NCBI GenBank assembly: GCA_049642065.1
Contig: JBAROK010000026.1
Location: forward strand, 1,868-65,867
DNA: 64,000 nucleotides
Direction: 5' to 3'
DNA from: Candidatus Omnitrophota bacterium
GTDB lineage: Bacteria; Omnitrophota; Gorgyraeia; Tantalellales; Tantalellaceae
In this document: one piece after another, positions 1 to 15,133 of the stretch
Layout: the number at the start of each line of letters is the position of its first letter
Position numbering within the stretch: position 1 is the stretch's first letter
Translations under genes and position numbers: made by a program
The notes under the pieces: model-generated
Databases searched by the model: none
What the model was told of the DNA's origin: nothing
Seen by the model: the letters and a program-made list of their open reading frames with translations, nothing else

Positions 1-1
1 C

Positions 2-421: not shown

Positions 422-428
422 GCTTAAT

Positions 429-1037
429 ATGAACATTGCAGTTTTTGTTTCAGGGAACGGAAGCAATCTTCAGGCTTTGATAGACGCGGAAGCCAGGGGG
501 GAGCTTGCCACTGGCAAGATAACCCTTATTGTATGCGACCAGCCCGAAGCTTTCGCTTTAAAAAGGGCGGAGAAAGCTGAGATAAAGACTTTTGTGCTTG
601 AAGCGGCCGGAGTCGCATCAAGAGAAGAATACGATAAAAAAGTCGCAAAAGAGCTGGAAAAAGAAAATATAGAGCTTATCGTACTTGCTGGTTTTATGCG
701 CATCTTAAGTGGTGACTTTGTCGATAAGTATCAAGGCCGCATCATGAACATACACCCCGCGCTCCTGCCGTCATTCAAGGGCACTCACGGGATACGTGAC
801 GCGGTAGAGTATGGGGTGAAAGTTACCGGAGTCACGGTTCACTTCGTGGATCAGGGGCTTGATTCCGGACCGGTGATCCTGCAAAAGTGCGTGCCTATTG
901 AAAAGGAAGATACGATGGATACTCTGGAAGAGAAGATCCATAGCGAAGAACATAAAATGTATCCTGAGGCTGTAAGGTTATTCACCGAGAACAGGCTTAG
1001 GATTAACGGAAGAAGAGTTGATATCCTGGACAAATAA
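429..1037 (+). CDS. purN: phosphoribosylglycinamide formyltransferase
   Basis: N-terminus MNIAVFVSGNGSNLQALID plus a HPALLPSFKG-type motif; about 200 aa, the GART length. ATG at 429 is preferred over the overlapping upstream ORF-track start at 312. Confidence 0.88.
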   Translation: MNIAVFVSGNGSNLQALIDAEARGELATGKITLIVCDQPEAFALKRAEKAEIKTFVLEAAGVASREEYDKKVAKELEKENIELIVLAGFMRILSGDFVDKYQGRIMNIHPALLPSFKGTHGIRDAVEYGVKVTGVTVHFVDQGLDSGPVILQKCVPIEKEDTMDTLEEKIHSEEHKMYPEAVRLFTENRLRINGRRVDILDK

Positions 1038-2595
<1,558 letters not shown>

Positions 2596-2596
<1 letters not shown>

Positions 2597-3096
2597 TGCG
2601 TCTTCTTGACCAAAAATTCCGTAGCAATAAGTTAAAGTATATCGGCCAGGCGCTGCTTGGCGGTTTGGCTGTTGGCATAGCGCTTCAAACCTTTGATGTT
2701 GTCAATAAGCCGGTCATCATAGCTTCTTTTGGAGCCAGTGCGTTCATAGCGTTCACGATGCCAAATCAACCGATATCCCGCCCGAGATGTCTTATTGGCG
2801 GGTATGCGGTAGGATTGGTCGTGGGGGTTCTGATGAACACCCTTACGTTCTTGCCCGCTGAAGCATACATATTACAGAAAGAAATCGAGATCACAGGAGG
2901 AGCAATAGCTGTGGCTTTAGCGATGTTCTTGATGTCTATAACCAATACTGAGCATGCACCTGCTACTGGAGTAGCTTTGGGTCTTGTGATAAACGAATGG
3001 AGTCTTCTTACGCTGGGTCAGATAATGGCTGGAATAGTTGTTATCTCTGCGATACAGAGATTGCTCAGGCCTTGGATGATGGATCTCATCGAGTAG
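2596..3096 (+). CDS. HPP-family integral membrane protein
   Basis: Four hydrophobic helices. SFGASAFIAFTMPNQPISRPR resembles the HPP-family core, with PNQP in place of HPP. Confidence 0.55.
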
Positions 3097-4054
3097 CGTG
3101 AGATCTGAGGAAATCGTTAACTTGCCTTAACCCGGTTAATCCCTGCACCGCGCCATGTCCCGAACATATCAGAGCTGAGACAGCTGATGCGAATTCCAGA
3201 TTTCTCTTCATGTTTTTTAGAAATGCGTCTTTTCCGTCTGCCGAGTACCTGTAGATAAGTCCTGCAGTAAAACCGTCACCAGCACCGATAGTATCTTTTA
3301 TGCGTACCTTGAAAGCAGGTTGTGTTATCTTTTTCTTTCCGTTCCAATAGAACGCGCCTTTTGTTCCTAGGGTAACGATTATATCTCCCTTAAGATGTTT
3401 CTTAATCTTTTCAAGCGCCTTATTAAGGGTTTTTGCTTGTGTGATGTGCAAAGCATCATCTTCGCTGAGTTTCACAAGGTCGACATACGCAAGTATCTTT
3501 TTTATCCTTTGCCGTGCTTTGGCTTTATTCGGTATTTTGCTCTCACGCCAGTTCGGATCATATGTAATAAAAACGTTTCTTTTTTTAGCCAGCCGCAACC
3601 GTTTCATTACCGATCGGAAAAACACATCGCTATACGAGAAGAAAGAACTAGCATGAAACACCACCGCGGATTTAAAGGGGGTTTCGCAAAGATGTTGAGC
3701 CTTGTCTTTATGGGGAACTTCTTTCCCGTAAAAGATGTAAGAAGAGTTGCCTTTGGAATCTATGCTTGCGAGCGCAAGAGGTGCGTTTATGTTCTTATCC
3801 TTTATGATATGGCGGGTATCTATGCCTTTATCCTTGAGTATGCTTATAAGAGACTGGCTAAGAGAATCGGTTCCCAGTCGAGACATTAGAGCAACAGGCA
3901 GGTCGAGTAGGGCAAGGATCATTGAAGTATTTGTAGCAGATCCTCCGGGATAGGCATGCAGGGTTAAGGGCTTACCCTTAGAGGACTTTTTTGCCACAAG
4001 GTCAAAAAGCGTCTCTCCGCAACATATGATTTTTTTAGGTATATTCTTGCCCAT
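3086..4054 (-). CDS. PfkB-family carbohydrate kinase (ribokinase/fructokinase-like)
   Basis: N-terminal GETLFD and C-terminal GAGDGFTAGLIY (the PfkB anion-hole/ATP motif); 322 aa. Confidence 0.8.
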   Translation of the reverse strand: MGKNIPKKIICCGETLFDLVAKKSSKGKPLTLHAYPGGSATNTSMILALLDLPVALMSRLGTDSLSQSLISILKDKGIDTRHIIKDKNINAPLALASIDSKGNSSYIFYGKEVPHKDKAQHLCETPFKSAVVFHASSFFSYSDVFFRSVMKRLRLAKKRNVFITYDPNWRESKIPNKAKARQRIKKILAYVDLVKLSEDDALHITQAKTLNKALEKIKKHLKGDIIVTLGTKGAFYWNGKKKITQPAFKVRIKDTIGAGDGFTAGLIYRYSADGKDAFLKNMKRNLEFASAVSALICSGHGAVQGLTGLRQVNDFLRSHATR

Positions 4055-4153
4055 GCAATATTAATAATAACATACAACCCCCGTATCAACAACCCGGGAC
4101 GTAAATATGTCTATATGGCCAAAAAGAGGGAAATGGCCCATACAAGCTTTTTA

Positions 4154-4183
4154 TTGACATAACTGGCTTTTTCATGGTATAAT
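4154..4183 (+). promoter_or_regulatory. sigma70-type promoter: TTGACA, 18-nt spacer, extended -10 TGgTATAAT, upstream of the giant ORF
   Basis: Hexamers read directly: TTGACA 4154-4159, TG 4175-4176, TATAAT 4178-4183. They point toward the ORF at 4289. Confidence 0.6.
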
Positions 4184-4288
4184 CTGGCTTCCACTGTATA
4201 TAAATGATAGGGGCTAAGTAGATAAATCAACATATAAGACTAAAGATAAATACTATATAGAAGTGGCGCGTAAATAATATAAAAGAAT

Positions 4289-4381
4289 ATGGGAAACTTA
4301 TTTATCAAGCACAAAACATGGGTCAGGATAGTGGCAATAGGCGTAGTGTGCCTATTTCTTCTCAATGATTTTGCGTTCGCT
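4289..4381 (+). other. N-terminal signal peptide / membrane anchor of the giant protein (MGNLFIKHKTWVRIVAIGVVCLFLLNDFAFA|VED)
   Basis: A positively charged n-region, a hydrophobic core, and an AFA|V signal-peptidase-I-like site. Confidence 0.55.
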
Positions 4382-7300
4382 GTTGAGGATGTGGCACTGA
4401 GGAAAAATGCGTATACCCTTTCTCCGGTTTCCCGCATAAGGCCGATTATCACAATTGAGGATAATGACGGTGAGCTTACCATAGTCGAGGATGAACAGGA
4501 AAGATCCAGACTGATCGAAGGTTTTCAGGAAGACGCCGGTTTCATATACCTGAACACTCTCATAGCCCAGGTGCTTCAAAAGTTCGGCTCTAGGATAAGC
4601 GCCGAAGGGTTGAAAGAACTTATCTCCAAACATCTTTCCCACGTAGATTTCACTAATTTTAAATGGCAAGAGATTTACAAAGAAGGAGACGTCTTCTGCC
4701 TTCCATATGCTAGAAAAGATGATGGCCGTACACAGATATTAAAATTCTACCTTCCGAAAGACAAAGAAGTACAGTTTCCCCACGAGGTTGCTTTAAAGTT
4801 TGATGACGGTTCAACTGCCATATTAGAAGACCCGATGGCCGAGCTTCCGGAGCATCTTAAGAAAATCCGTGAGACCGCTGCCAGTATCGCAGGGCAAGGA
4901 ATATTGTCTGGGATGGAGCTAGCGGAAAGAGGGATTAAGGGGAGCGCCTCAGCGGACGTAAAGGATCTTTCAAAAGACGGCAGGCTTTCATGCAATATGA
5001 TCTTGGTGGAGAAGTCTGAGAGGGACAGGGAAGCTTTAGACAGAACACTTTATGATAAATACCAGGGAAGTTTTCAGGTAGTTGCCGAAAGAAGAGAAGA
5101 CGTAGAAGACAGAATCTTGCGTTGGCCGCAGAAAGAACTTGAAAGAATTCTTGGAGAAAGAGCTTCTCATAATTTTATCGTAATAATCGATCCGGCAAAA
5201 CTTCATCCTGTCAGCAGAGAAGATGTTAAGAGAGTGCCCCAGGGTGCCTATCGTTCATATATTGAGATGCGTTTCAGTTACGGGATAAGACCTGAAGCTT
5301 TCAAAGCCGTGCTAATACCTAAAGAACTTGTTCCCATTATAGGGAATGTCTTTCCGCCACATGTAAAGATCATTGAAGTAAACGGCACAAGGCAAAAAGA
5401 GTTGGAAGTGCTGAGGCAGGAACCGATGATGGTAGGAGAGCGTCGTATAGGGGAAGAATCTAGAACGCGTATGGTTAACATGGAATTGCCGGACTATGAA
5501 ACTGCCCTTAGCGATTATTTAAGAGGCATGTCTAGAGGAGATAAACTCCTGACCCATATCGTAAGGCTTACTGCTCCGTCTGATGTCGAGCCTGAAAAAT
5601 CCGAAAACGAAAAGAAACATATACAAGGAGATAGTTCTGGGGATGATGGGAATCCTTCAGCTAAAGGTTCGGGTGGCCCCGTAACGTTAATGAGTGTAGC
5701 CTTACCTGCCCTTGCTACAGCATTTTTAAACACAGGCGAAGCGATAGATCCACTGATACCTGTGCTTTTTGGGATTGTTGCATTAGTCGCGATACCTATA
5801 GCGCTTTATCATGCATACAGATTTTGTATCGGGATAATGACAGTGGCCTTAGGGGTCAGAGAAAGAATAGCGACTGAGTTTGTTTTGGGAGGCGGCCTTA
5901 TCGCTGCCGGGATCCATTTGGGGTTCGGTCAAGTTGTACCGTCTTTTACGGAATATATAGCATCACCACTTTTATGTAGTGCCGGGGCGTGCCTCATAAC
6001 TTTTGGTGCGTACGAACTCGTAAAAGGTCTCATCATAAAATGGTCAAAAAAACAGGAAGACACACCGAACTTGGGTTCAGTCAACTCTTATGATCTAGCG
6101 TCTCACGAACTTCTTCGGGAGCATCTTAGGTATGCGGGGCAGTTACAGGCATGGGGACAGGAAGTAGAAGGTACAGACTTTTCGCAATATTATCACGACA
6201 GGCTAACTGAAGCCGGGATAACTCTACCAGATGATCTTAATCTGATCGTAATAAAACATAATCATGGGCCCCAAGGATCGCTAGAACAGAAATTTCTTTA
6301 TTTTGAGCCTATGGCTGAAAAATGGATATTCTCTCATTCTGGAACGCGCAAAGGAACCGGTAAATTCGTATATCTTACTGAGGAATCTTTATATCTTCTT
6401 ACGCATAACGTAAGCAGACATCCTGATTGCAAAAAGTTTCTTGAAGAACTTTTAATGGAAGAATACGAACACGCTACCCTTAAGCTGGAAGGCCGCTGGG
6501 CACAGGATTCACATAAGCTTGGCGATTCGCATCTTAAGGAATATGTGGAAAAAAACTTTAAGCTAAGACAACTCAGGTTAGCGGAACCCGTAGCGACAGC
6601 TATAGCCGATAACTGGACAATATCCGGAAGCATAATAGAACTATTTATTGATTTTCACCTTAAGGAAAAAGTTCCGCTAGATATTGAAGCGAGGTTTCAT
6701 AGAGAAGCAACTGAAGCAACAGACCTGGGGGGAATAGCCCGCATAATGGCTAGCAGCGCCAAGAGTCCGGACCACGCGAGAGAAAGAGTGCTTGAAGATG
6801 TACAAGTGATGGTTAGGTATAACTTGGCACAGGCGCGCAAGACAATAGATTTTATGGACGAAATGGCGGCAAAAGTTTCGCCTGAAATAAGAGAAGGACA
6901 AGAGTTTAAGAATCTCGTTGCTTTCTTTGTGGAGAATTTGAGTGACGCAGAGCTATACAAGGAAATCATAGACGATGAGCACATTCAATATGACGAGATA
7001 AATATAGGTTATCTGGCAAGGGATACGATCAGGTTCCTTAAGTCCCTGAAACAGTTCGAGCACACCGATATTGTTTTTAAGAATGATACGCCGGAGACGA
7101 CCATTTTGGGTGAGCCATATCTTATACGCTGGGAATTTATCGGTGCAGTGTTGAGGGAGGTTGATAATCTGCCAAGAGGAAGCGGCAAGATAGAAATCGG
7201 ATATCGGCAAGATTCATCAAGGATAGGGATCGAATTCATAGCGGAAAACCCGGCAGAACGCGCGAGGTGGATCGAAAGCGTAAAAGATAAATGCGCTGAT

Positions 7301-10300
7301 CTGAACGGTGCTTTTTATCGCGAGCTTAGGAAAGAATATAGAAGGGATGCGGGATCATGTTTTGATGCTTCTTACGTTCTTTCCCGAGTGCTGGCGGAAC
7401 ATCTTGGTCTTCCGATCGATGGTGATTCTCCCGATAGGATAGAGATAGAGGTGGGAGAGTACCCGTCTACGAGGCTTCTTAAGCCTTCTATTCACGCTTG
7501 GGTAATTGTGTACAGAAAAGGGGAGAGAACTCTTCTTATCGACCCGACCAGAGGGCAGTATGACAAGGGACAGTATAACAAAATATTTGTTGGAGAGTAT
7601 GCGAAGGCGATGGAAGAGCTGGAGCTAATAGGTCCGGATGAGCTGAGAGGAAAAGATGACTATAGGGATATAAACGATATCTTATTCAGCCATACGAGCA
7701 AGGAACCCCTGGACCTGATGTCAAGCCGCGTGTTGGAGAATATGGAGCTAGTCAGCATACTCAGAAACAGGTTGGATCTCAGTATAGGAAACGCAAGTCT
7801 TGGTCTGACCGAGCGGTTTGATTTTCTGGTGGGTGCTAATAAAGAGAAAATAATCAAGGAAACTGCTTTTACTGTTGCGGAGATTAAAAGAAGTACAGGC
7901 AAAAATACTAGAATGGGAGTACGCGTGGGCTACAAGGATGAAAGCACGGGTACGCAGTTTGACCTTGTCCTGGATATTGCTTATTACGGGGACGTCGAAA
8001 AAGTCGAAATAGTCATAAAAGTGTCAACCTCAGATATCTCAAAAGTGTTCCTCCTCCCGGAGCCCAATACTGTTGATATGGTCTTTCTTGGCGGAGGTAA
8101 AGCTTCGCTAAAACCAGCAGCGAAAGAGGCACATCCCGTTAGGCGAGGGGGAGAAAAAAACATACGAACTGACGAAGAAGCCAATGAGATCATACCAGGA
8201 ATTTTCAAAGCGCTAGGTATTGAATCGGAAAAACTGGAATGGCGCGAAGAGGATGGGTTGGTAGTAGCCGACATGCCGGTAGAGATGCTTAAAGAGCAGG
8301 AGGTAAAATTAGCGTTTGATCTTCCCGAGAAGGCACCTGTTGCAGGAGAGCTATTGATAGCGTGTCACGGAAGCTCACCGATGTTTTTATGCTTAAGAGG
8401 TAAAAAGCAGCTCGTGAAGATCATCAATTTAATGCCCTATTACGAGGATCTTCCCGAAGAAACCGCATTACGCATTATGGGCAGACTGGACGCTAAATTC
8501 CCAATAATGGAATTCGTGGGACACTCGCCATATTCATATGCGGTATTCAATGAGTGGGGAGGGTTGATCGAAATAACATCCGGATATCCGAACACAAAAA
8601 AATACCGTATTCCGATACATGTTACGCGCATACCCATACTCCCAGGGGTGTACGGAGGATCCCACTCATCGAGCGAGATAAGTGCCCGCGCTACAGTCGA
8701 ATATGCTAAACCAGGCATGAAAGTGCTTGTTGTCGGAACCGGCAAAGGTCTTGAGGCTCGAATAGCGGCGCTGCGGGGTGCTACTGTAGATGCCGTGGAC
8801 ATAAGAGAACTTGCAGTCGCGAACACTAAAATAACCTGTTATCAAGCGGGCGTGTCGGATAAAGTGAACGCATTCTGCAACGATCTTTTTAACGGGCTCG
8901 GGAAATATGATCTTATTATCTTTAACATGCCGCATGCCTCCGATGAACCGCTGGTTCACGATCTAGTTACAAGTAAAGACCGTAATACCAGTGATTTCGG
9001 AGGAGCATTGCTTGACAGGGTAGCCGATGAGATAGCAAAACACATGGCGCTGGGAGGTAAAGCCGTTCTTATCAATAGTGAATCTTTTATTACGGAAAAG
9101 AAACTGAAAGAAAGAACAGGGTTTAGCGTTAGATCGGACTTCTTTGATGTTGCCGGAGGATCAAAAGCGTACATTATAGAGAGGCCCGATTCAGATAGGG
9201 AAAAATCTGCCGGGATTTTACGTCTTCCTTCGCCGCGCGGGCATGTTCCCGATATACAGGGAAACATTGAAAGGGCTAAAAGGAATATGTGCCAGCCTTT
9301 AGAGCAGGACAATTCTACTATAGTTAGTGAAAAAGATATCGACTGGACGGCGATAAACGCGTACATGCGCCAGAAGAAACTGAAGGTATACCCCAAAAAA
9401 GACAGGCCTGTCGTACATGTAGTGGACATACAAGGCGAGAACGGAAAAGACCTTTTCGGGTTTCCGCTTGTACCGGGCCATGAGGAGTTTGAGGGAATTG
9501 TACCGGTCATATCGTACAGGTCCTTAAAGGACGACCGGTTGCACGTGTTCATGACAGCCGGCCTTTATGACGACTATCTTGAAGTATCCCACATGAGAGC
9601 GACTAGAAGCGCGAAAACGCTTCGTATTGTCCGGCTCGCCGAAATACTTGATCACGAGATCTTTGAACATTCCGAGGAAGCTCTTGCTGAGCCCGAAGAA
9701 GAAAGGCACCATCTTGCTGCGCTCCGCGCCGGGCATTTTATCCCGCGTGGCCAGAAAATAAGCGCGTTCCACAAATGGGTCTTGGACAATATGGCGCTTA
9801 CAGAAAACGGACGCGAACATATAATGCTTATGCTTGACGAAGAGAGGCCAGAGCCGGAGAGGTCCAGCCAGCGTAAATACGAAAGGAATTTTTATAATTA
9901 CGCCAAGAGCGTGTTACCAAGGGAAAAATATTCAGGCAAAGTGCAGCGTGCCGCTCATCATCTTTTGAGAGTATACGGGCACGGAGATGTACACGCTTTT
10001 GAAGAATTGTGCGTAAAAGTCGGAGTAGACCCCAAAGCGCTTAGTAAAGCGATCGAGCAAGAGGAGAAAAAACACGTGTTGAACGCCGTTGAAGGGTTTA
10101 AGCCGGATATAGTTATTACGGAGACGAGTGAGACGAATGTGGAGATAGATAACACAAAAGCCATTGTAAGAAAGCTGCTCAAGAACCAATACGCTGATTT
10201 TGTATGGAACGCGCTGATGAAAGCCAAACACGGGCCGGAATGTATGACGGTGCTGTTGGAGGTACTTGCTAAACACGGTAAAGATGTCTTCTGCAGCGAG

Positions 10301-13300
10301 AAGATGGAGCCTGTTATAGAGTATGCGTTCAGGGAACTAAAACGGTACGATAAAGAGAAATACGAGAGAGTAAGCGATAAGGCCGGTACAGTACTTGAGG
10401 TAGTTTCAGATTATATGGATCAGCTGGCGATACTTGCCAGTTATCTTCTTGCCCAGGAAAGGTTGGGAGGGCTTATAGCGGACTTTACGATAATCGACGG
10501 CCAGATATACCAAGAAAAGGTGACCCCTCTTACAGTTTATCTTCAGCAGCTTATTAGCGGAACGGGCCCCTTCGAAGACCTTAAAGATAAATCTTACGAG
10601 AACAAAGTAAGGATAGGGTGGGACGTTCTGGAAAAATATATCGAATGTATTCAAGAGATAGCTAAAAGGGGAGCAGTAATATGTAACGTTAAGTTAACTA
10701 ATTTTGGTATAAGAGAGAACGGTGAAGTGGTTCTTTTTGACCTGGGAAGGTCGTCTTTGGGGTGGCATGACAGAGGAGAGATAAACCAGGAGTTCGCGCT
10801 TACCCTGCTTGGTACGAAAATAGCAATGGATGCCAGGCGACTTGAGAACTTGAATGCCGAAGGTGTTTTTGAAGAAACGGGCATACGTCATGATTTTGGA
10901 GATGATGAGCAAGCCCAAAAACTTCAAACGGAACTAGCGCGGATATGGACAGAACTAATCTCCGCAAGACCCATTGCGGAGGGTGACGAGGAGGCCGTGA
11001 AGATACTGGATGGCAGGGAGTTTGTTGAGAGGGTCAAGACCATTCTCCCAAAAACACCGGAAGAAGCTGAACCCGAATACAGGAGGATAACGTTCATCCC
11101 AAACGAAATAGCGGGGGAAGAGATCTTACAGGTAATAATGAAGGAGATAGATGACAGTAAAACAGAAACAACGTCCTCGCTTCCACAAGGATCCATACAT
11201 GGCGTTTTCACATATCTATGTGAAAATAATGTTATAAATCCTGAAACTAGTTTACCGGGCGATCTGATAGCTAATGGTCTTGACCGCCAGTTTGGAACGA
11301 TAAAGTATGACCTGAGAGCTTTATTTTACCATTTGCATCTTATTGAAAAAGCGGATGTCAAGGAGACCGGCAAGAGCGCCAGATACTACGTACCGGAAAG
11401 GGTAAAGAAGAAAGCCGCCAGGATATTACCTGTTCTTACCCGTTTTGTTGGAGAAGACCGTGTGCCCAAAGTAACACTTCTTGATAAAGTTTACGAAGAA
11501 GAGATAGCCCCCATTCTGCAAGCCCTGCCCCAAACAAGATGCAGACCCAAGCCCATTGAAGGAAAAGCGCCGATAATCCTTATCCTGGGATGGCCCGGAT
11601 CAGGTAAGACTACCCTTGGAAGATCTTTGAGCCAGGAGCTGGGAGTGCCTCATATCTCAATAGGTACATTGATAGCGCAAGAAAGGGAACGCAACCCTGA
11701 TTTTGATCCGGCGCTTCTTAACAGTAACGACTACGTCTATGGTGAGCTTCTTGAGAATGCGCTTGGGGAGTGCGATCTTACAGGAGGTGTTATTATTGAC
11801 AATTCTCCACGTACACCTGATGCGATAAACGCATTAAAAGAAATACTCGAAGCCAAAGGTCTCAAGCTCGGGGCGATAATAGAGCTTACTATTAGCAGGA
11901 GAACTGCCGGTTCACGTATGGTAAAAAGGTCCAGAGAAGAGGGAAGAAACTGGGACAGGAGCAGGAAAGTAAGGCGCAAAAAAATGGACATGTACCGGAA
12001 GATGGCGATGCCGCAGCTTGATCAGTGGCGCAAGAAAGGACTTGTATGTTCGCTGGACGCGGAAGTGGAACCGTGGATCCTGGAAGCCAGAGCGCTTGGA
12101 AGGTTGAATGAGAAAGGCGTGGTTTCGCTGCATCCGCAAAGTGACGAACAGACACATAAGCCACTCACTCCGATTAAAGAAGAGGGCTCCATAGAGTTAG
12201 CTGGCAAGAAATTCCGTTTAGCGACTATAGCAATAAGTGATACCTATAAATCACTTGAAGTGTTTGATGAAGAGACCGGCAAGCGTGTGGGTTTCTTTTA
12301 CGCTATGGTGGGAGACGAAACTAGTCCTCATTGTGCTGATGTTTGCGGAATAAGGGGAATACACCTCAAGCCCCAATACAGGGGGCTAGGATTATCAGCG
12401 AAGATGATGGAAATATTTTTCCAGAAGTTTAGAGAAGTTAATCTGCTTCTTGATGAGATAATGAACCCCATGCTAATTCACATGGCAAAAGAACATTTTG
12501 GGTTTTTGCCTGTTAACCCGGTCCCGGAGAACAGGGTGTACATAAACCTTAAGCAGGGAAGATCCAGCAAGCCAAAGATATGGATACCTGAAGATTTTCT
12601 GAGGCGTTCATACAGTATGGGTCCACCGGAAACTATGCGCAAAGAGTTCGAAGTGCTTCAGGAAGAGCCGGACAATCTAGACGATTTTGAAAAGGTATAT
12701 TTCCGTACTGCGTACAAACGGGTTTACCATCCAGGACTTAGGCTGGAAGGTGTAGATGCTGTTATTACTGATTTTGATGGCGTGGATAGAGACCACAGCA
12801 TGGATGTCGTGAGCGAAGAAACCATTGCGGCAAAGAGAGGACTATCAAGAAGAGGTGTTCATAACATAACGATTACAGGACTCGAACAGGGCAAGCTTTT
12901 CAGGCGTTTCGGCGGGGCAAAAAGAGCCGGGAAGATAAGTACCCGAGATGATTATATCGCTCTTAGCTGTTCCGGGGCTGTTGCTAACCAGGTAACAAAA
13001 GATGGCCAGATAAAACCGCTTGCAGGGTTTAAGGGTGTTTCGTTGGGAGACAGAAAGACAAAACAGGATATTGCAAGGATAGCTAGAAAGGCTTTACTTA
13101 TAGCTTGCCGAGAAGCGGGCATACCACAGGAAGCTGCCGATAATGTCGAAGAATCGATCAGGGAAGAGCAGGTATCTCTTATTGCGAGGGGCGATGAAAG
13201 AATTAGTGCGATACGTTACAGAGTAGCGGAGATTATCCGTAAAGAGCTAAAAAAACAAGGCTTTCCAAAGAATATTGAAGTTTCAGCTTCATTCGTGGCA

Positions 13301-14776
13301 GTGGACATTACCAGTACGTCCAAGGGCAAGGCCGCGATCCAGATGATTAAGCTTTTGAAGCTTACGAAAGTAGTACTAATAGGTGATTCCGTTGGTACTG
13401 AAGAGAAGCCCGGCAATGATAGGAGCTTACTTGTTTTGACTAAAAAAGATATCCGGGCCGCCGGGATAGACTGGGAAGTTGAGCTCATACCTGTTTATGT
13501 AGGACGAGAGGAGAATTATACTCTTCCGGAGAACGTTATTATCTCTCCTCAGGGCGAAAGAGAAATCGATCCTGCACTCAACCTGTACAACGCTGTTATA
13601 AGGGCACAGGACGAGGTAGCGCTACGCGAACTAGCAAAAGAAAAGACCATGAGAGTATGGGGATCGCTTGATAAGAAGAGATTGACCAAATGGTTACAGG
13701 AATGGAAGAAGATATATAAGATCCAAGGTAAGATAGATATAAAACGCCTTTTCAAGGACAGGGTCGGCAGGACACTGTCTTTCAGTATCGGTGAGCACAA
13801 TTGTACGGTTACGTTCGATGTAACAAAAAGCATGAATACCGGCAAAGTGCGGCTGACGATAATGGGCATGCATCTTGACGGAAAACTCAGGGAAAAGCGG
13901 CTTATGTCCATGTTGACCCTGTATCTTATTCAGCCTTATAAGTGCGATGAAGTTTATCACGACAGGATGAACGAGAAATTCGGAGAAAAATTCTTCAAAG
14001 GCTTGAAAAAGCTTGGTATTTACAGCGATATTACATATTCTGAAAAACAGAAAGGTAAATACAGGAACGGGCTGGGGATAATAGATAAAAAGCGCGTCAA
14101 AGAAATCACACATAACACAGAAGCTCTTAAGAAGTTTATCTCAAAAGACGAGGATAGCCGAGGCAAGGAAGGTTTATCTAATGAGGTAAAGGGCAGTCAG
14201 GAGGCAGCTGGCAGATTCGTTGACGAGATAATTATAAGAGCTTTTGAAGCGCAAAAAGAAGGGCAGGATATTATTATTGGTGTAGATACCAGCTGGATAC
14301 CTGATATGCAGGGAGTGCAGCTAGTGTTAAATGAACTATCCCGCATTTCAAGACGTAAAGGGTTTAAGAATATCCATTTTATAAGAGGCAGGGGAGCCGA
14401 ACTGGCGGAGCTTATTTCAAAAAGAGTAGAGAAGACAGGAACCGCACTTTCAAACGTTATAGTGCTTGCTGAAGAACATGTTTTGCAGGCGGATCAGTTT
14501 AATGGTCTGAGAAGTACTGAAGATGAAGAAAAAGCTTTTCTGGTGGGGGTTGATCCAAAGCATCTTACCGACAAAAGTTATACTAGAATACTTGAGATGC
14601 TGACCTTGGCGGTTAAGCTCGCTTTCAGCGAGCAGGAAAAAGCTGAAATTTTTGGAGTATCGGCTACCCGTATTGGTCCAAGAACGTGGATATTTATTCC
14701 CGAGGCGTGTCCGATGGACTTTGAGGAAAGAAAAGCTATTTATAAAGCCCAGATGCAGGCGCTAATCGCAGCCTAA
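4289..14776 (+). CDS. giant multidomain membrane-anchored protein (3,495 aa); motifs are detailed in the sub-features
   Basis: Single uninterrupted frame of 10,488 nt, with a promoter upstream and a hairpin terminator downstream. Multiple independent catalytic motifs occur in the same frame. All ORF-track antisense ORFs across this span are short. Confidence 0.85.
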   Translation: MGNLFIKHKTWVRIVAIGVVCLFLLNDFAFAVEDVALRKNAYTLSPVSRIRPIITIEDNDGELTIVEDEQERSRLIEGFQEDAGFIYLNTLIAQVLQKFGSRISAEGLKELISKHLSHVDFTNFKWQEIYKEGDVFCLPYARKDDGRTQILKFYLPKDKEVQFPHEVALKFDDGSTAILEDPMAELPEHLKKIRETAASIAGQGILSGMELAERGIKGSASADVKDLSKDGRLSCNMILVEKSERDREALDRTLYDKYQGSFQVVAERREDVEDRILRWPQKELERILGERASHNFIVIIDPAKLHPVSREDVKRVPQGAYRSYIEMRFSYGIRPEAFKAVLIPKELVPIIGNVFPPHVKIIEVNGTRQKELEVLRQEPMMVGERRIGEESRTRMVNMELPDYETALSDYLRGMSRGDKLLTHIVRLTAPSDVEPEKSENEKKHIQGDSSGDDGNPSAKGSGGPVTLMSVALPALATAFLNTGEAIDPLIPVLFGIVALVAIPIALYHAYRFCIGIMTVALGVRERIATEFVLGGGLIAAGIHLGFGQVVPSFTEYIASPLLCSAGACLITFGAYELVKGLIIKWSKKQEDTPNLGSVNSYDLASHELLREHLRYAGQLQAWGQEVEGTDFSQYYHDRLTEAGITLPDDLNLIVIKHNHGPQGSLEQKFLYFEPMAEKWIFSHSGTRKGTGKFVYLTEESLYLLTHNVSRHPDCKKFLEELLMEEYEHATLKLEGRWAQDSHKLGDSHLKEYVEKNFKLRQLRLAEPVATAIADNWTISGSIIELFIDFHLKEKVPLDIEARFHREATEATDLGGIARIMASSAKSPDHARERVLEDVQVMVRYNLAQARKTIDFMDEMAAKVSPEIREGQEFKNLVAFFVENLSDAELYKEIIDDEHIQYDEINIGYLARDTIRFLKSLKQFEHTDIVFKNDTPETTILGEPYLIRWEFIGAVLREVDNLPRGSGKIEIGYRQDSSRIGIEFIAENPAERARWIESVKDKCADLNGAFYRELRKEYRRDAGSCFDASYVLSRVLAEHLGLPIDGDSPDRIEIEVGEYPSTRLLKPSIHAWVIVYRKGERTLLIDPTRGQYDKGQYNKIFVGEYAKAMEELELIGPDELRGKDDYRDINDILFSHTSKEPLDLMSSRVLENMELVSILRNRLDLSIGNASLGLTERFDFLVGANKEKIIKETAFTVAEIKRSTGKNTRMGVRVGYKDESTGTQFDLVLDIAYYGDVEKVEIVIKVSTSDISKVFLLPEPNTVDMVFLGGGKASLKPAAKEAHPVRRGGEKNIRTDEEANEIIPGIFKALGIESEKLEWREEDGLVVADMPVEMLKEQEVKLAFDLPEKAPVAGELLIACHGSSPMFLCLRGKKQLVKIINLMPYYEDLPEETALRIMGRLDAKFPIMEFVGHSPYSYAVFNEWGGLIEITSGYPNTKKYRIPIHVTRIPILPGVYGGSHSSSEISARATVEYAKPGMKVLVVGTGKGLEARIAALRGATVDAVDIRELAVANTKITCYQAGVSDKVNAFCNDLFNGLGKYDLIIFNMPHASDEPLVHDLVTSKDRNTSDFGGALLDRVADEIAKHMALGGKAVLINSESFITEKKLKERTGFSVRSDFFDVAGGSKAYIIERPDSDREKSAGILRLPSPRGHVPDIQGNIERAKRNMCQPLEQDNSTIVSEKDIDWTAINAYMRQKKLKVYPKKDRPVVHVVDIQGENGKDLFGFPLVPGHEEFEGIVPVISYRSLKDDRLHVFMTAGLYDDYLEVSHMRATRSAKTLRIVRLAEILDHEIFEHSEEALAEPEEERHHLAALRAGHFIPRGQKISAFHKWVLDNMALTENGREHIMLMLDEERPEPERSSQRKYERNFYNYAKSVLPREKYSGKVQRAAHHLLRVYGHGDVHAFEELCVKVGVDPKALSKAIEQEEKKHVLNAVEGFKPDIVITETSETNVEIDNTKAIVRKLLKNQYADFVWNALMKAKHGPECMTVLLEVLAKHGKDVFCSEKMEPVIEYAFRELKRYDKEKYERVSDKAGTVLEVVSDYMDQLAILASYLLAQERLGGLIADFTIIDGQIYQEKVTPLTVYLQQLISGTGPFEDLKDKSYENKVRIGWDVLEKYIECIQEIAKRGAVICNVKLTNFGIRENGEVVLFDLGRSSLGWHDRGEINQEFALTLLGTKIAMDARRLENLNAEGVFEETGIRHDFGDDEQAQKLQTELARIWTELISARPIAEGDEEAVKILDGREFVERVKTILPKTPEEAEPEYRRITFIPNEIAGEEILQVIMKEIDDSKTETTSSLPQGSIHGVFTYLCENNVINPETSLPGDLIANGLDRQFGTIKYDLRALFYHLHLIEKADVKETGKSARYYVPERVKKKAARILPVLTRFVGEDRVPKVTLLDKVYEEEIAPILQALPQTRCRPKPIEGKAPIILILGWPGSGKTTLGRSLSQELGVPHISIGTLIAQERERNPDFDPALLNSNDYVYGELLENALGECDLTGGVIIDNSPRTPDAINALKEILEAKGLKLGAIIELTISRRTAGSRMVKRSREEGRNWDRSRKVRRKKMDMYRKMAMPQLDQWRKKGLVCSLDAEVEPWILEARALGRLNEKGVVSLHPQSDEQTHKPLTPIKEEGSIELAGKKFRLATIAISDTYKSLEVFDEETGKRVGFFYAMVGDETSPHCADVCGIRGIHLKPQYRGLGLSAKMMEIFFQKFREVNLLLDEIMNPMLIHMAKEHFGFLPVNPVPENRVYINLKQGRSSKPKIWIPEDFLRRSYSMGPPETMRKEFEVLQEEPDNLDDFEKVYFRTAYKRVYHPGLRLEGVDAVITDFDGVDRDHSMDVVSEETIAAKRGLSRRGVHNITITGLEQGKLFRRFGGAKRAGKISTRDDYIALSCSGAVANQVTKDGQIKPLAGFKGVSLGDRKTKQDIARIARKALLIACREAGIPQEAADNVEESIREEQVSLIARGDERISAIRYRVAEIIRKELKKQGFPKNIEVSASFVAVDITSTSKGKAAIQMIKLLKLTKVVLIGDSVGTEEKPGNDRSLLVLTKKDIRAAGIDWEVELIPVYVGREENYTLPENVIISPQGEREIDPALNLYNAVIRAQDEVALRELAKEKTMRVWGSLDKKRLTKWLQEWKKIYKIQGKIDIKRLFKDRVGRTLSFSIGEHNCTVTFDVTKSMNTGKVRLTIMGMHLDGKLREKRLMSMLTLYLIQPYKCDEVYHDRMNEKFGEKFFKGLKKLGIYSDITYSEKQKGKYRNGLGIIDKKRVKEITHNTEALKKFISKDEDSRGKEGLSNEVKGSQEAAGRFVDEIIIRAFEAQKEGQDIIIGVDTSWIPDMQGVQLVLNELSRISRRKGFKNIHFIRGRGAELAELISKRVEKTGTALSNVIVLAEEHVLQADQFNGLRSTEDEEKAFLVGVDPKHLTDKSYTRILEMLTLAVKLAFSEQEKAEIFGVSATRIGPRTWIFIPEACPMDFEERKAIYKAQMQALIAA
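5675..6050 (+). other. internal block of 4-5 predicted transmembrane helices (aa ~463-587) in the giant protein
   Basis: Consecutive hydrophobic stretches: LMSVALPALATAFL, LIPVLFGIVALVAIPIALY, FVLGGGLIAAGIHLGFG, IASPLLCSAGACLITFGAY. Confidence 0.6.
7300..7600 (+). other. transglutaminase-like cysteine-protease core (Cys1024-His1069-Asp1085) in the giant protein
   Basis: GSCFDASYVLSRVLAEHLGLP (Cys codon 7358-7360), SIHAWVIVY (His codon 7493-7495) and LLIDPTRG (Asp codon 7541-7543). This matches the C...HAW...DPT pattern of the transglutaminase-like superfamily. Confidence 0.6.
8700..9120 (+). other. class I SAM-dependent methyltransferase-like domain with an N-M-P-H motif IV (amino-group MTase type) in the giant protein
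   Basis: Motif I VLVVGTGKG at 8723-8749; acidic beta-2 end AVDI; motif IV DLIIFNMPH with NMPH at 8924-8935, where N6-adenine and protein Gln/Lys methyltransferases have (D/N)PP(Y/F). Confidence 0.55.
10660..10760 (+). other. protein-kinase-like catalytic-loop/DFG-like signature (possibly degenerate) in the giant protein
   Basis: VICNVKLTNFG aligns to HRDLKPxN with Asn in the Asp position. It is followed 10 aa later by VVLFDLGRS (DLG 10739-10747). Confidence 0.35.
11560..11960 (+). other. adenylate-kinase-like (NMP kinase) P-loop domain in the giant protein
   Basis: Walker A ILILGWPGSGKTT (11588-11614); GVIIDNSPRTPDAINAL resembles the adenylate kinase GFLLDGFPRT segment; ISRRTAGSRMVKR resembles the LID arginines. 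Confidence 0.6.
12200..12520 (+). other. GNAT-type N-acetyltransferase-like domain in the giant protein
   Basis: VGFFYAMVGDE...VCGIRGIHLKPQYRGLGLSAKMMEIF matches GNAT motif A (R/Q-x-x-G-x-G/A). Confidence 0.5.
12746..13470 (+). other. HAD-superfamily phosphatase-like domain (Cof/SPP type) in the giant protein
   Basis: Motif I VITDFDGVD (Asp 12770, Asp 12776), a conserved Lys region SKGKAAIQ, and motif IV VVLIGDSVGTEEKPGND (Asp 13385, Asp 13418). Confidence 0.5.
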
Positions 14777-14805
14777 TTTCGATCCAGAACATGCAACAAT
14801 TGACA

Positions 14806-14840
14806 AAAAGCCCGGGTAATTTAATAACCGGGCTTTTTAT
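14806..14840. terminator. bidirectional rho-independent terminator for the giant ORF (+) and tRNA-Met (-)
   Basis: Stem agcccgg / ccgggct with a 12-nt loop. A T-run follows on the + strand and an A-run precedes it, which reads as a T-run for the - strand. Confidence 0.7.
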
Positions 14841-14845
14841 ATATT

Positions 14846-14920
14846 TGGTTGCGGGGGACGGAATCGAACCGCCGACCTTGAGGTTATGAGCCTCACGAGC
14901 TACCCCTGCTCCACCCCGCG
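14846..14920 (-). tRNA. tRNA-Met (anticodon CAT), initiator-like
   Basis: The reverse complement reads CGCGGGGTGGAGCAGGGGTAGCTCGTGAGGCTCATAACCTCAAGGTCGGCGGTTCGATTCCGTCCCCCGCAACCA. It has a cloverleaf, a CAT anticodon, three G-C pairs in the anticodon stem, an unpaired C1 as in fMet tRNAs, and an encoded CCA. Confidence 0.9.
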
Positions 14921-15050
14921 TCAATAACTATTTAGAGTGAGTGATTATAGCAAATAAAACTAACACAGGCAAGGAGTTTTTGACAAAAACACAAGAGCCT
15001 ATCGGTACAGCGGTTTAATACCTATATATTGTGTAGTTACCCCATAATAA

Positions 15051-15079
15051 TTGACAGTAAGTATTATATATGTTATAAA
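15051..15079 (+). promoter_or_regulatory. sigma70-like promoter (TTGACA, 17-nt spacer, TATAAA) upstream of purB
   Basis: Hexamers read directly, 55 nt upstream of the purB ATG. Confidence 0.45.
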
Positions 15080-15133
15080 AAATATCTCTGATTCAAGTAA
15101 TCACTAATTTTCCCTAAAATCAGGAGAGAAAAT

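What the first reader, a model, noticed from the sequence alone, without database searches (positions are those of the whole stretch)
8700..9120. SAM-methyltransferase fold with an N-M-P-H motif IV
Motif I is VLVVGTGKG and motif IV is DLIIFNMPH. That is the position where N6-adenine DNA MTases and protein Gln/Lys N-MTases carry (D/N)PP(Y/F/W). An amino-directed methyltransferase inside a secreted or membrane giant protein is unusual. Its substrate could be nucleic acid or protein.
Basis: partly seen in the sequence, partly recalled or inferred. Interest (0 to 1): 0.65.

Follow-up and report, generated by a model that had tools for sequence, protein, structure and literature searches.

The report
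Divergent HemK-like methyltransferase in Omnitrophota protein
The flagged stretch encodes a real SAM-dependent methyltransferase domain in which the classic nitrogen-methylating "NPPY" loop has become "NMPH"; it defines a small, uncharacterised family found almost only inside the very long multi-enzyme proteins of Omnitrophota bacteria, and its target is still unknown.

Summary
VLVVGTGKG (nt 8723-8749) and DLIIFNMPH (nt 8909-8935) lie in frame in a 3495-aa ORF (4289-14776, +).

The domain is a class I SAM methyltransferase. Its closest known relatives are all nitrogen-directed enzymes:
- HemK2/MTQ2 (hhalign 99.5 %, with NMPH aligned column for column on NPPY);
- PrmA, PrmB/PrmC and the MTS family;
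- a carbamoyl N-methyltransferase that carries NPPH.

It reaches no NCBIfam cut-off and only borderline Pfam scores.

An exhaustive profile search found about 32 cluster representatives forming a distinct family. The signature is D-x-[IV]-[IV]-F-N-M-P-H, with N in 28/31, M in 28/31, P in 30/31 and H in 23/31. In most members the catalytic core is fused to a 150-aa upstream domain. That domain models at pLDDT 94 and has no significant PDB match.

The two-domain module sits at variable positions in 1.4-7.8 kaa proteins of Candidatus Omnitrophota and relatives, and is sometimes a stand-alone gene. Methyltransferase domains in Omnitrophota giant proteins are already published in generic terms. This family, its motif and its accessory domain are not.

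The best reading is an active N-methyltransferase, most likely acting on protein. The substrate and the side of the membrane are unresolved: several homologues place the module directly after a signal peptide.

Verdict: a new variant of a known kind, of moderate interest.

The parts
4289..14776 (+). 3495-aa ORF (long multi-enzyme membrane protein of an Omnitrophota-type bacterium) that contains the finding
   Evidence: There is a 50 %-identity orthologue, P0008, over aa 489-3350, and a 57 %-identity N-terminus in P0005. Family loci lie in Candidatus Omnitrophota MAGs.
4289..4798 (+). Conserved N-terminal 'bookend' (aa 1-170). It has a basic n-region, a hydrophobic segment at aa 14-32 ending AFA|VE, then a YTLSPVSRIRP motif.
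   Evidence: blastp shows it shared with P0005, P0006, P0010, P0013, P0019 and P0024. Leader alignment by eye. Hydropathy scans. No Pfam hit.
5675..6043 (+). Hydrophobic cluster aa 463-585. One strong TM lies at 489-507, with weaker segments around it. The positively charged loops are RER (aa 525-527) and KWSKKQ (aa 585-590).
   Evidence: Kyte-Doolittle and Hessa-scale scans. The topology is inferred from the positive-inside rule only.
8174..9238 (+). Complete conserved two-domain module (aa ~1296-1650): accessory domain plus methyltransferase core
   Evidence: Boundaries come from blastp against about 30 family proteins and hmmsearch envelopes. The AF2 model of aa 1300-1660 has pLDDT 74.8 and pTM 0.78.
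8192..8620 (+). Upstream accessory alpha/beta domain (aa 1302-1444), specific to the family
   Evidence: AF2 with 22 sequences gives pLDDT 94.2. Foldseek finds no significant hit in PDB (best E 0.06, TM <= 0.3, weak GNAT-like matches) or in BFVD. A profile search of PDB sequences also finds nothing significant.
8621..9199 (+). Class I SAM-dependent methyltransferase catalytic core (aa 1445-1637)
   Evidence: NCBIfam, Pfam and PDB profile hits. Foldseek E 1e-9 to PrmA, RsmC and 9l4q. hhalign 99.5 % to HemK2/MTQ2.
8639..8674 (+). Pre-motif-I element LPGVYGGSHSSS (aa 1451-1462). It corresponds to PrmA 'AFGTGxHxTT' and to the MTS 'pGVF' / HemK2 'VYxPxEDS' element.
   Evidence: PG-V is invariant or nearly invariant in 26 cores. 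It is aligned to PrmA residues 93-110. The hmmalign columns are shown.
8723..8749 (+). Motif I VLVVGTGKG (GxGxG SAM-binding loop, aa 1479-1487)
   Evidence: V32, G36 and G40 are invariant and G38 is >=90 % conserved in A2. It follows strand beta-1 in the model.
8798..8800 (+). Motif II acidic residue D1504 (end of beta-2, VDAVD)
   Evidence: Invariant D57 in A2. It sits at the end of strand E200-205 in the model. Its role in binding the SAM ribose is inferred from class I methyltransferases in general.
8909..8935 (+). Motif IV DLIIFNMPH (aa 1541-1549). N1546 is the catalytic-loop Asn; M1547 replaces the first Pro of NPPY; P1548 is retained; H1549 replaces Tyr/Phe.
   Evidence: It aligns to NPPY of HemK2/MTQ2, to NPPH of 9l4q and NSPT of GenN, and to N191 of PrmA.
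8936..9007 (+). Variable post-motif-IV loop ending in the conserved N-x-x-D-x-x-G (RNTSDFGG; D1569 invariant)
   Evidence: Low pLDDT at model residues 249-272. D122 is invariant in A2. In hhalign it aligns with the HemK2 'D...GG' segment.
11576..12064 (+). Adenylate/NMP-kinase-like P-loop domain (aa 2430-2592), same protein
   Evidence: Pfam ADK 9.9e-13 and AAA_17 1.8e-13. PDB adenylate kinases 1e-13. All NCBIfam adenylate kinase models score below their cut-offs.
12263..12505 (+). GNAT acetyltransferase-like domain (aa 2659-2739), same protein
   Evidence: Pfam Acetyltransf_1 scores 21.4 bits against a 20.7 cut-off when scanned alone. Orthologue P0008 is named a GNAT family N-acetyltransferase by NCBI.
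14156..14773 (+). Conserved C-terminal 'bookend' (aa ~3290-3495) ending ...QMQALIAA-COOH
   Evidence: blastp shows it shared with P0003, P0005, P0006, P0008, P0013, P0019 and P0024. Tail comparison. No Pfam hit.

Best explanation
Window nt ~8621-9199 encodes the catalytic core of a class I (Rossmann-fold) SAM-dependent methyltransferase. It belongs to a previously undescribed family, largely restricted to Omnitrophota, that branches from the HemK2/MTQ2-PrmA-MTS group of nitrogen-directed ('amino') methyltransferases.

The SAM-binding side is canonical: GxGxG motif I and an invariant acidic residue after beta-2.

The catalytic loop after beta-4 reads N-M-P-H instead of N-P-P-Y.
[quoted passage not shown] The aromatic residue packs on the substrate.
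- Here the Asn, that main-chain position (now Met) and the second Pro are all kept, and the aromatic residue becomes His.
- I therefore infer that the domain still transfers a methyl group to a nitrogen. The most likely target is a protein side-chain amide or amine (Gln, Lys or an N-terminus), because the closest profiles and folds are protein N-methyltransferases.

The core is fused to a family-specific 150-aa alpha/beta domain that probably presents the substrate. The two domains travel together as one cassette through long, membrane-anchored multi-enzyme proteins. In the window protein the module most likely faces the cytoplasm, where SAM is available.

Shown: the fold, the motif equivalence, the family, the conservation, the cassette behaviour and the taxon.
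Inferred: catalytic activity, nitrogen as the target atom, protein as the substrate, and the topology.
For: Fold and relatives:
- NF011529 7.5e-16 and TIGR00537 (HemK2/MTQ2) 2.7e-13, with PrmB and PrmA weaker.
- All 26 family cores hit NF011529 and TIGR00537; 21/26 hit Pfam PrmA and 20/26 hit MTS.
- Foldseek top hits are PrmA, RsmC, the carbamoyl N-methyltransferase 9l4q, GenN, METTL21A and PrmC.
- The family profile against PDB sequences gives 9l4q 6e-8 and PrmA 1e-7.

Motif equivalence:
- hhalign 99.5 %, E 1.4e-22, with FNMPH on FNPPY of P0089, which passes the HemK2/MTQ2 cut-offs.
- The mechanism of NPPY is taken from PMC6796863.

Conservation across 31 modules:
- N 28/31, with the alternatives D and S, which is the classical D/N/S alphabet.
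- M 28/31, P 30/31, H 23/31.
- SAM-binding residues are invariant.

Family and cassette behaviour:
- 32 representatives score below 1e-30, at variable positions in 1.4-7.8 kaa proteins.
- The module occurs as a stand-alone gene in L014 and L015.

Other points:
- The module is mildly acidic (median pI 6.0 for the core, 5.4 for the accessory domain), which is weak evidence against a nucleic-acid substrate.
- Topology: the RER and KWSKKQ loops flank the hydrophobic cluster.
Against: - No curated NCBIfam cut-off is reached (58 vs 162 bits; 50 vs 87), so the function cannot be transferred from HemK2/MTQ2 or PrmA.
- The first Pro of the motif and the aromatic residue are both changed. No enzyme with N-M-P-H has been characterised, as far as the PDB and literature searches here show.
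- The ranking of protein over RNA or small-molecule N-methyltransferases is shallow: Foldseek E-values all lie between 1e-9 and 1e-7.
- The accessory domain gives no functional clue.
- Several homologues (P0015, P0020, P0032, P0010, P0013) put the module straight after a signal-peptide-like leader with no TM in between. That conflicts with a cytoplasmic, SAM-supplied enzyme.
- The topology rests on crude hydropathy rules.
Confidence: 0.6

Rival explanations
1. The domain is a small-molecule or glycan N-methyltransferase. It would methylate an amine or carbamoyl nitrogen of a metabolite or cell-envelope sugar, as one station in a multi-enzyme 'assembly' protein together with the kinase-like, GNAT and phosphatase-like domains.
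For: - The best PDB sequence hit of the family profile is the carbamoyl N-methyltransferase Asc-Orf2 (9l4q, 6e-8; motif NPPH; Foldseek TM 0.70 normalised to the target).
- The gentamicin 3''-N-methyltransferase GenN (FNSPT) is also among the top hits.
- Published readings of Omnitrophota long proteins see them as multi-enzyme metabolic or sugar-processing clusters.
- The same protein carries GNAT and NMP-kinase-like domains.
Against: - NCBIfam profile hits to the protein methyltransferases HemK2/MTQ2, PrmB/PrmC and PrmA are stronger and universal across the family.
- The module's neighbours are not conserved, so there is no recognisable pathway.
- No biosynthetic cluster surrounds the gene; the neighbours are enolase, PfkB and the pur genes.
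Confidence: 0.2
2. The domain is an RNA or DNA base amino-methyltransferase (m2G, m6A or m4C), like RsmC/RsmD, TrmN6 or N6-adenine DNA methyltransferases.
For: - Pfam MTS (the RsmC/RsmD family) is hit by 20/26 members.
- RsmC 2pjd is in the Foldseek top 10.
- PADLOC mad2 (the MADS methyltransferase) scores 2.8e-15 over aa 1460-1603.
- NPPY-type loops were first defined in DNA amino-methyltransferases (PMC6796863).
Against: - The RsmC and TrmN6 NCBIfam models are hit by only 6-7 of 26 members and far below their cut-offs.
- The mad2 match covers only the generic SAM-binding core (profile positions 274-403 of 492).
- There is no target-recognition domain and no restriction or defence neighbours.
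- The module is acidic rather than basic.
- HemK2 itself shows that an NPPY loop does not imply DNA activity (PMC6796863, PMC6796829).
Confidence: 0.1
3. The domain is a non-catalytic remnant: a SAM/SAH-binding or purely structural Rossmann domain retained as a scaffold or sensor in a long regulatory protein.
For: - The motif IV consensus is broken (Pro to Met, Tyr to His).
- Related multi-copy arrays show further decay: WNG(V/M) in P0033 and WHMPT in P0034.
- The module co-occurs with HATPase_c signalling domains in P0002, P0010 and P0017.
Against: - F-N-M-P-H is strongly conserved across 35-60 %-identity homologues, and the SAM-binding residues are invariant.
- Position 1 varies only within D/N/S, which is the pattern of purifying selection on an active site.
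Confidence: 0.07

Closest known systems
HemK2/MTQ2 (N6AMT1) family protein glutamine-N5 methyltransferases (NCBIfam TIGR00537; PRK14968/NF011529)
   Same: - Best profile match for all 26 family cores.
- hhalign 99.5 %, 34 % identity over 134 columns.
- Same order of elements: pre-motif I, GxGxG, acidic beta-2 end, beta-4 'YDLIIFN', and a post-IV 'D..GG' segment followed by 'hL.pgG.a.lv'.
- The catalytic Asn and the second Pro are in identical columns.
   Different: - Scores are far below the curated cut-offs (50 vs 87 bits; 58 vs 162).
- NPPY is replaced by NMPH.
- It is not a ~200-aa stand-alone enzyme; it is fused to a 150-aa accessory domain and embedded in multi-kaa proteins.
- There is no evidence for a Trm112-type partner or a GGQ substrate.
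Ribosomal protein L11 methyltransferase PrmA (Pfam PF06325; PDB 1ufk/2nxc/3cjt)
   Same: - Top Foldseek hit (E 1.2e-9) and second-best PDB sequence hit.
- The pre-motif-I 'G.H..S/T' element aligns with PrmA GTGHHETT, and the Asn aligns with N191.
- Both are two-domain enzymes with an N-terminal substrate-recognition domain.
- The window core alone scores 24.3 bits against the Pfam cut-off of 22.
   Different: - The PrmA loop is A-N-L-Y with no Pro.
- NCBIfam PrmA models score 20-28 bits against cut-offs of 183-327.
- Only the SAM-binding half of the Pfam model is matched (positions 143-234 of 296).
- The accessory domain shows no significant similarity to anything in the PDB, PrmA's N-domain included.
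Carbamoyl N-methyltransferase Asc-Orf2 (PDB 9l4q, 'Methyltransferase small domain-containing protein')
   Same: - Best PDB sequence match of the family profile (6e-8) and highest target-normalised TM (0.70).
- Its motif IV is N-P-P-H, the only solved relative found here that shares the His at position 4.
- It methylates an amide-type nitrogen.
   Different: - It keeps Pro-Pro.
- It is a small soluble biosynthetic enzyme.
- Only profile positions 60-151 are aligned.
- No paper on it could be found in the searchable library.
Methyltransferase domains of Omnitrophota giant/long proteins ('Archaeovorins'; 'Pfam module 1')
   Same: - Same phylum and the same kind of host protein: membrane-associated, with many enzyme domains including GNAT, HAD, HATPase_c and kinases.
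- The topology is equally ambiguous in the published work.
   Different: - The published descriptions are generic (PF08241, 'SAM-dependent methylases', one structural match to PDB 5BXY).
- Neither preprint mentions the NMPH signature, PF05175/HemK similarity, the accessory domain or the module's cassette behaviour.
- The window protein, at 3.5 kaa, is well below the sizes on which those papers focus.

Membership tests
Class I (Rossmann-fold) SAM-dependent methyltransferases | Glycine-rich motif I (GxGxG) after beta-1 | tested here: met
   VLVVGTGKG, aa 1479-1487. G36 and G40 are invariant and G38 is >=90 % conserved in 26 cores.
Class I (Rossmann-fold) SAM-dependent methyltransferases | Acidic residue at the end of beta-2 (ribose contact) | tested here: met
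   D1504 in VDAVD is invariant and lies at the end of a predicted strand. The contact itself was not modelled.
Class I (Rossmann-fold) SAM-dependent methyltransferases | Seven-stranded alpha/beta fold | tested here: met
   The AF2 secondary structure alternates seven strands with helices as in a class I core; strand order was not checked. Foldseek gives 1191 PDB matches with E <= 0.001, and the listed top 50 are almost all methyltransferases.
Amino-methyltransferases with a (D/N/S)PP(Y/F/W) motif IV | D/N/S at the C-terminal end of beta-4 | tested here: met
   N1546. Across the family: N 28, D 1, S 1, A 1 of 31. It aligns to the Asn of NPPY.
Amino-methyltransferases with a (D/N/S)PP(Y/F/W) motif IV | Pro-Pro at positions 2-3 | tested here: not met
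   Position 2 is Met (28/31). Position 3 is Pro and is kept (30/31).
Amino-methyltransferases with a (D/N/S)PP(Y/F/W) motif IV | Aromatic Tyr/Phe/Trp at position 4 | tested here: not met
   His in 23/31; the others are Q, I, L, S, Y and V. His also occurs at this position in 9l4q, which has NPPH.
HemK2/MTQ2 (TIGR00537 / NF011529) | Score at or above the curated NCBIfam cut-off | tested here: not met
   50.0-50.5 bits vs 87, and 57.8-58.1 bits vs 162. Bona fide members P0046, P0073, P0089 and P0135 score 131-199 bits.
HemK2/MTQ2 (TIGR00537 / NF011529) | Methylates the Gln of the GGQ motif of release factors; needs a Trm112 partner in archaea and eukaryotes | not testable with these tools
   No biochemical data are available, and no partner was sought.
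PrmA (Pfam PF06325; NCBIfam TIGR00406) | Score at or above the curated cut-offs | tested here: inconclusive
   Pfam: 24.3 bits vs 22 for the core scanned alone, but 19.2 in the whole-protein scan, with only profile positions 143-234 of 296 matched. NCBIfam TIGR00406: 20 bits vs 183.
PrmA (Pfam PF06325; NCBIfam TIGR00406) | N-terminal L11-binding domain | tested here: not met
   The accessory-domain model (pLDDT 94) has no significant PDB match. PrmA is absent from its Foldseek hits.
MTS, methyltransferase small domain (Pfam PF05175: RsmC/RsmD-type) | Score at or above the gathering threshold (23 bits) | tested here: inconclusive
   The window protein scores 20.8 bits, below the threshold. Several family members pass: P0010 30.5, P0021 35.6, P0030 72.9. 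20/26 cores match at E <= 0.01.
N6-adenine DNA methyltransferases / MADS mad2 | Target-recognition domain and a restriction/defence gene context | tested here: not met
   The PADLOC mad2 hit covers only the SAM-binding core, profile positions 274-403 of 492. The neighbours are enolase, HPP, PfkB, purB, purM, purD, purE and SHMT.
Trm5/TYW2 (Met_10, 'NLP' loop); a lead from memory | Match to Pfam PF02475 | tested here: not met
   PF02475 is absent from the hits of all 26 cores at E <= 0.01.

The most novel reading that the evidence does not exclude
The NMPH module, and the long proteins that carry it, may be exported cargo rather than cytoplasmic enzymes.

Supporting observations:
- Complete family members share a Sec-type leader followed by a conserved (Y/H)TL(S/A)P.S.F.P motif.
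- They also share a conserved C-terminal tail ending in hydrophobic-x-(A/S/K/R)-A-COOH.
- In several members (P0015, P0020, P0032, P0010, P0013) the SAM-dependent module follows the leader with no membrane segment in between.

If these proteins really leave the cytoplasm, the methyltransferase could only work inside another cell. That would make it a new class of N-methylating effector, delivered by predatory or epibiotic Omnitrophota into prey, with a new substrate-recognition fold.
Probability: 0.15. Interest if true: 0.75.

Novelty: new variant of a known kind. Interest (0 to 1): 0.45.

Why it matters
- It gives a concrete, sequence-defined handle on the largely unannotated proteins of Omnitrophota. 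The handle is a two-domain cassette of ~350 aa with the signature D-x-[IV]-[IV]-F-N-M-P-H. More than 80 % of this 3495-aa protein has no Pfam match.
- It extends the known alphabet of the catalytic loop of nitrogen-directed methyltransferases from (D/N/S)-P-P-(Y/F/W) to N-M-P-H, within a visible continuum that includes NPPY, NAPL, NVPF and NMPS. This is useful for annotation and for understanding which parts of that loop are essential.
- The same SAM-dependent module appears on the predicted cytoplasmic side in one protein and directly behind a signal peptide in others. This turns the topology and secretion of these proteins, a question both published studies leave open, into something testable with one small, expressible domain.

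Tried and rejected
Searches that failed or were unavailable:
- The word-indexed homologue search with the domain alone found nothing.
- The whole-protein search timed out.
- The profile version returned only distant generic methyltransferases.
- The family was found only through a wider 801-aa query followed by the exhaustive profile search.

Ideas considered and dropped:
- DNA methyltransferase / defence reading from the PADLOC mad2 hit: rejected, because it matches only the core, there is no target-recognition domain, and the neighbours are housekeeping genes.
- Trm5-type 'NLP' loop (from memory): no Met_10 hit in any member.
- My eye-guess of a transglutaminase-like Cys-His-Asp core at aa ~1005-1080, and of a HAD domain at aa ~2838, got no Pfam support.
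- Minus-strand ORFs 8440-8826 and 8956-9552: no family hits. Rfam: nothing.

Limits:
- No paper on PDB 9l4q could be found.
- The topology was assessed only with Kyte-Doolittle and Hessa-scale windows and the positive-inside rule. No SignalP or DeepTMHMM was available.
Full report
**1. The observation**

The window carries a 3495-codon ORF at 4289-14776 on the + strand.
- In its frame, VLVVGTGKG is aa 1479-1487 (nt 8723-8749).
- DLIIFNMPH is aa 1541-1549 (nt 8909-8935).

Both motifs are therefore real and lie at the stated place.

Nothing else is encoded there. The two minus-strand ORFs overlapping the region have no family match, and Rfam finds nothing in 8000-10000.

**2. What the domain is**

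Sequence profiles:
- Pfam gives sub-threshold hits to MTS (PF05175, 20.8 bits vs 23) and PrmA (PF06325) in the whole-protein scan.
- NCBIfam is clearer. NF011529/PRK14968 'putative methyltransferase' scores 7.5e-16 and TIGR00537 'HemK2/MTQ2 family protein methyltransferase' scores 2.7e-13. PrmB, PrmA, TrmN6 and RsmC follow, all far below their curated cut-offs.
- Against PDB sequences, the single domain finds T. thermophilus PrmA (3e-5). Its GTGHHETT aligns with GGSHSSSE, and its VAN(191)LY aligns with IFNMP.

Structure:
- An AF2 model of aa 1300-1660 (pLDDT 74.8, pTM 0.78) has seven strands alternating with helices, as in a class I methyltransferase core. YDLIIFN forms beta-4 and MPH opens the next loop. 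That loop is the only low-confidence stretch in the domain.
- Foldseek against the PDB ranks PrmA, RsmC, the carbamoyl N-methyltransferase Asc-Orf2 (9l4q), the aminoglycoside N-methyltransferase GenN, METTL21A and PrmC at the top, with E between 1e-9 and 1e-7.

**3. The family**

A word-indexed search with the domain alone found nothing. An 801-aa query found three homologues.

A profile of these was searched exhaustively against 1.84 billion representatives. It returned 2110 hits, of which 32 scored below 1e-30.

Those 32 form a distinct group.
- Nearly all are pieces of very long proteins (1.4-7.8 kaa).
- The match sits at quite different positions in different proteins, and sometimes occurs in 2-4 copies.

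Aligning 31 modules gives this signature:
PvLPGVf.g.H.SS.iSA.A ... pG.kVLViGTG.G.EA.iAA.kGA.VdAvDi...A.eNTkl ... LG.YDlIiFNMPH ... N..D..g.lL ... H...G.A...N ... SqaYIi

Within motif IV:
- Asn is present in 28/31. The exceptions are D, S and A, and D/N/S is exactly the classical alphabet of amino-methyltransferases.
- Met is present in 28/31, Pro in 30/31 and His in 23/31.
- The exact string NMPH occurs in 20/31.

**4. Equivalence of NMPH and NPPY**

When all 150 listed hits are aligned to the family profile, the motif-IV column shows a continuum: FNMPH, WNMPS, FNAPLA, FNLPL, WNVPF, FNPPF/Y.
- Four of the FNPPYL proteins (P0046, P0073, P0089, P0135) pass both curated cut-offs for HemK2/MTQ2.
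- hhalign of the family alignment against one of them gives 99.5 % probability, E 1.4e-22, and 34 % identity over 134 columns. YDLIIFNMPHASD lies directly on YDLIIFNPPYLPE.
- The family profile also aligns FNMPH with GNPPH of 9l4q and with FNSPT of GenN.
- All 26 cores individually hit the HemK2/MTQ2 models. 21-23 hit PrmA models, 20 hit PrmB and 15 hit PrmC. Only 6-7 hit RsmC or TrmN6.

That criterion is not fulfilled.

**5. Mechanism**

In NPPY enzymes the target nitrogen is hydrogen-bonded by the Asn side chain and by the main-chain carbonyl of the following residue, and the aromatic residue packs against the substrate. This holds both for adenine in M.TaqI and for the RF1 glutamine in HemK (PMC6796863).

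In NMPH the Asn is kept. The carbonyl donor position is still there (Met instead of Pro, a main-chain function). The second Pro is kept, and Tyr becomes His. The solved relative 9l4q also has His at that position.

Together with invariant SAM-binding residues, this argues for an active enzyme that methylates a nitrogen. That step is inference, not demonstration.

The closest relatives by profile are protein Gln/Lys/N-terminal methyltransferases, and the module is mildly acidic (median pI 6.0 and 5.4). I therefore rank a protein substrate first (about 0.4 of the total), a small-molecule amine or carbamoyl second, a nucleic-acid base third, and a non-catalytic remnant last.

**6. The accessory domain and the cassette**

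In about 22 of the 31 modules aligned, the core is preceded by a ~150-aa domain (aa 1302-1444 here).
- Modelled alone with 22 sequences, it reaches pLDDT 94.2.
- It has no significant match in the PDB (best E 0.06, TM <= 0.3) or in BFVD. The only recurring hits are weak GNAT-like ones, which I do not accept.
- A profile search of PDB sequences is also empty.

blastp of the window protein against the family shows that similarity rises sharply at aa ~1250-1300 and falls at ~1650. Outside the module, only close orthologues match: P0008 at 50 % over aa 489-3350, and P0005 in blocks.

The module also exists as a separate gene. P0015 (430 aa) and P0018 (487 aa) lie in rows of co-directional genes for large unannotated proteins. 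It is therefore an autonomous two-domain unit.

**7. Host protein, organism and literature**

Organism and public annotation:
- GTDB genomes carrying the module are Candidatus Omnitrophota (including Ca. Tantalella remota), MAGs labelled 'uncultured Planctomycetia', and FCPU426. One divergent member is from Ca. Auribacterota.
- Public names are generic: 'methyltransferase', 'methylase of polypeptide subunit release factors', or named after another domain.

Genomic context:
- The gene sits among housekeeping genes: enolase, HPP, PfkB, purB, purM, purD, purE, SHMT and SurA.
- A JGI metagenome contig is 99.98 % identical to this part of the window.

Other domains in the protein:
- An NMP-kinase-like P-loop at aa 2430-2592.
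- A GNAT at aa 2659-2739.
- A weak kinase-like region.
- The remaining >80 % has no Pfam match.

Literature:
- Two preprints describe methyltransferase, GNAT, HAD, HATPase_c and kinase domains as common components of Omnitrophota giant/long proteins, and both discuss their uncertain topology (10.1101/2023.11.21.568195; 10.64898/2026.06.07.730766).
- Neither mentions this family, its motif or its accessory domain.
- The general phenomenon is therefore known, and the specific family is not.

**8. Topology: an unresolved point**

Complete family members share two terminal features:
- An N-terminal leader, made of a basic stretch, a hydrophobic segment and an S-[FYW]-A or A-x-A site, followed by a conserved (Y/H)TL(S/A)P.S.F.P motif.
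- A C-terminal domain or tail ending in hydrophobic-x-(A/S/K/R)-A.

In the window protein:
- The leader is followed by ~430 soluble residues and then a hydrophobic cluster (aa 463-585), with one strong TM and several weaker segments.
- The positively charged loops (RER, KWSKKQ) place aa 590-3495, including the methyltransferase, in the cytoplasm by the positive-inside rule. This fits the need for SAM, ATP and acetyl-CoA.

In P0015, P0020, P0032, P0010 and P0013, by contrast, no hydrophobic segment separates the leader from the module. By the same rules the module would be exported.

In locus L014, five tandem genes each begin MKIKKQIN(H/Y)IIIFLL and end (I/L/M/V)EQA(I/V). One of them is the methyltransferase module.

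I cannot resolve this with the tools at hand. It is the basis of the 'novel case' (exported effector, probability ~0.15).

**9. Verdict**

The fold and the motif-IV equivalence are right, and nitrogen-directed chemistry is the best inference. 'Unusual in a giant protein' is not right for this phylum. The substrate and localisation remain open.
- The domain is not a member of HemK2/MTQ2 or PrmA by their curated criteria, but it most probably works like them.
- Novelty: a new variant of a known kind.
- Interest: moderate (0.45). It would be higher if export is demonstrated.

Noticed in passing
window 13130 (codon aa 2948); locus L001: A JGI metagenome contig (3300060480, Ga0589154_00000504) is 99.98 % identical to window 1289-16132. 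It differs by 3 SNPs. One of them, GAA->TAA (E2948*), splits the 3495-aa gene into 2947-aa and 493-aa ORFs in that assembly. This is either a strain polymorphism or a sequencing error.
   Followed up: partly
window 4289-4798 and 14156-14773; proteins P0005, P0006, P0008, P0010, P0013, P0019, P0024: The long proteins carrying the module share two conserved 'bookends' around variable enzyme blocks. The N-terminal one is ~170 aa: a leader followed by a (Y/H)TL(S/A)P.S.F.P motif. The C-terminal one is ~200 aa and ends in ...LIAA, ...SAA or ...KSA. Neither has a Pfam match. The C-terminal tail superficially recalls ssrA-type 'LAA' ends.
   Followed up: partly
locus L014 (Ca. Omnitrophota GCA_043826565.1, JBDRPX010000037.1) 1-11817: There are five tandem co-directional genes (1042+, 928, 430, 814 and 661 aa). 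Each starts MKIKKQIN(H/Y)IIIFLL... and ends (I/L/M/V)EQA(I/V). Two of the ~42-nt intergenic spacers are identical. The 430-aa gene is the stand-alone NMPH module (P0015). It looks like a 'leader-cargo-tail' paralogue array, possibly an unfused counterpart of a giant gene.
   Followed up: partly
proteins P0025, P0033, P0034 (family relatives, not in the window): These are multi-copy arrays of the methyltransferase core with a drifted motif IV: 4x WNMPS (P0025), 4x WNG(V/M) with the Pro lost (P0033), and 2x WHMPT (P0034). They may represent diversification or decay of the catalytic loop within a single polypeptide.
   Followed up: no
proteins P0002, P0010, P0017; locus L015: The NMPH module repeatedly co-occurs with histidine-kinase-type HATPase_c domains, and in P0010 with a metallophosphoesterase. 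In P0010 these ATP-dependent domains also lie between the signal-peptide-like leader and the module, with no hydrophobic segment among them.
   Followed up: no
window 4289-14776 (aa 32-460, 600-1300, 1650-2050, 2800-3290): More than 80 % of the 3495-aa protein has no Pfam hit even when scanned in pieces. A C...H...D pattern at aa ~1005-1080 (GSCFDAS / IHAWVIVY / LIDPT) looks transglutaminase-like by eye but got no profile support. A weak FAM69/AceK kinase-like match lies at aa ~2068-2152.
   Followed up: partly
[not shown]
   Followed up: partly
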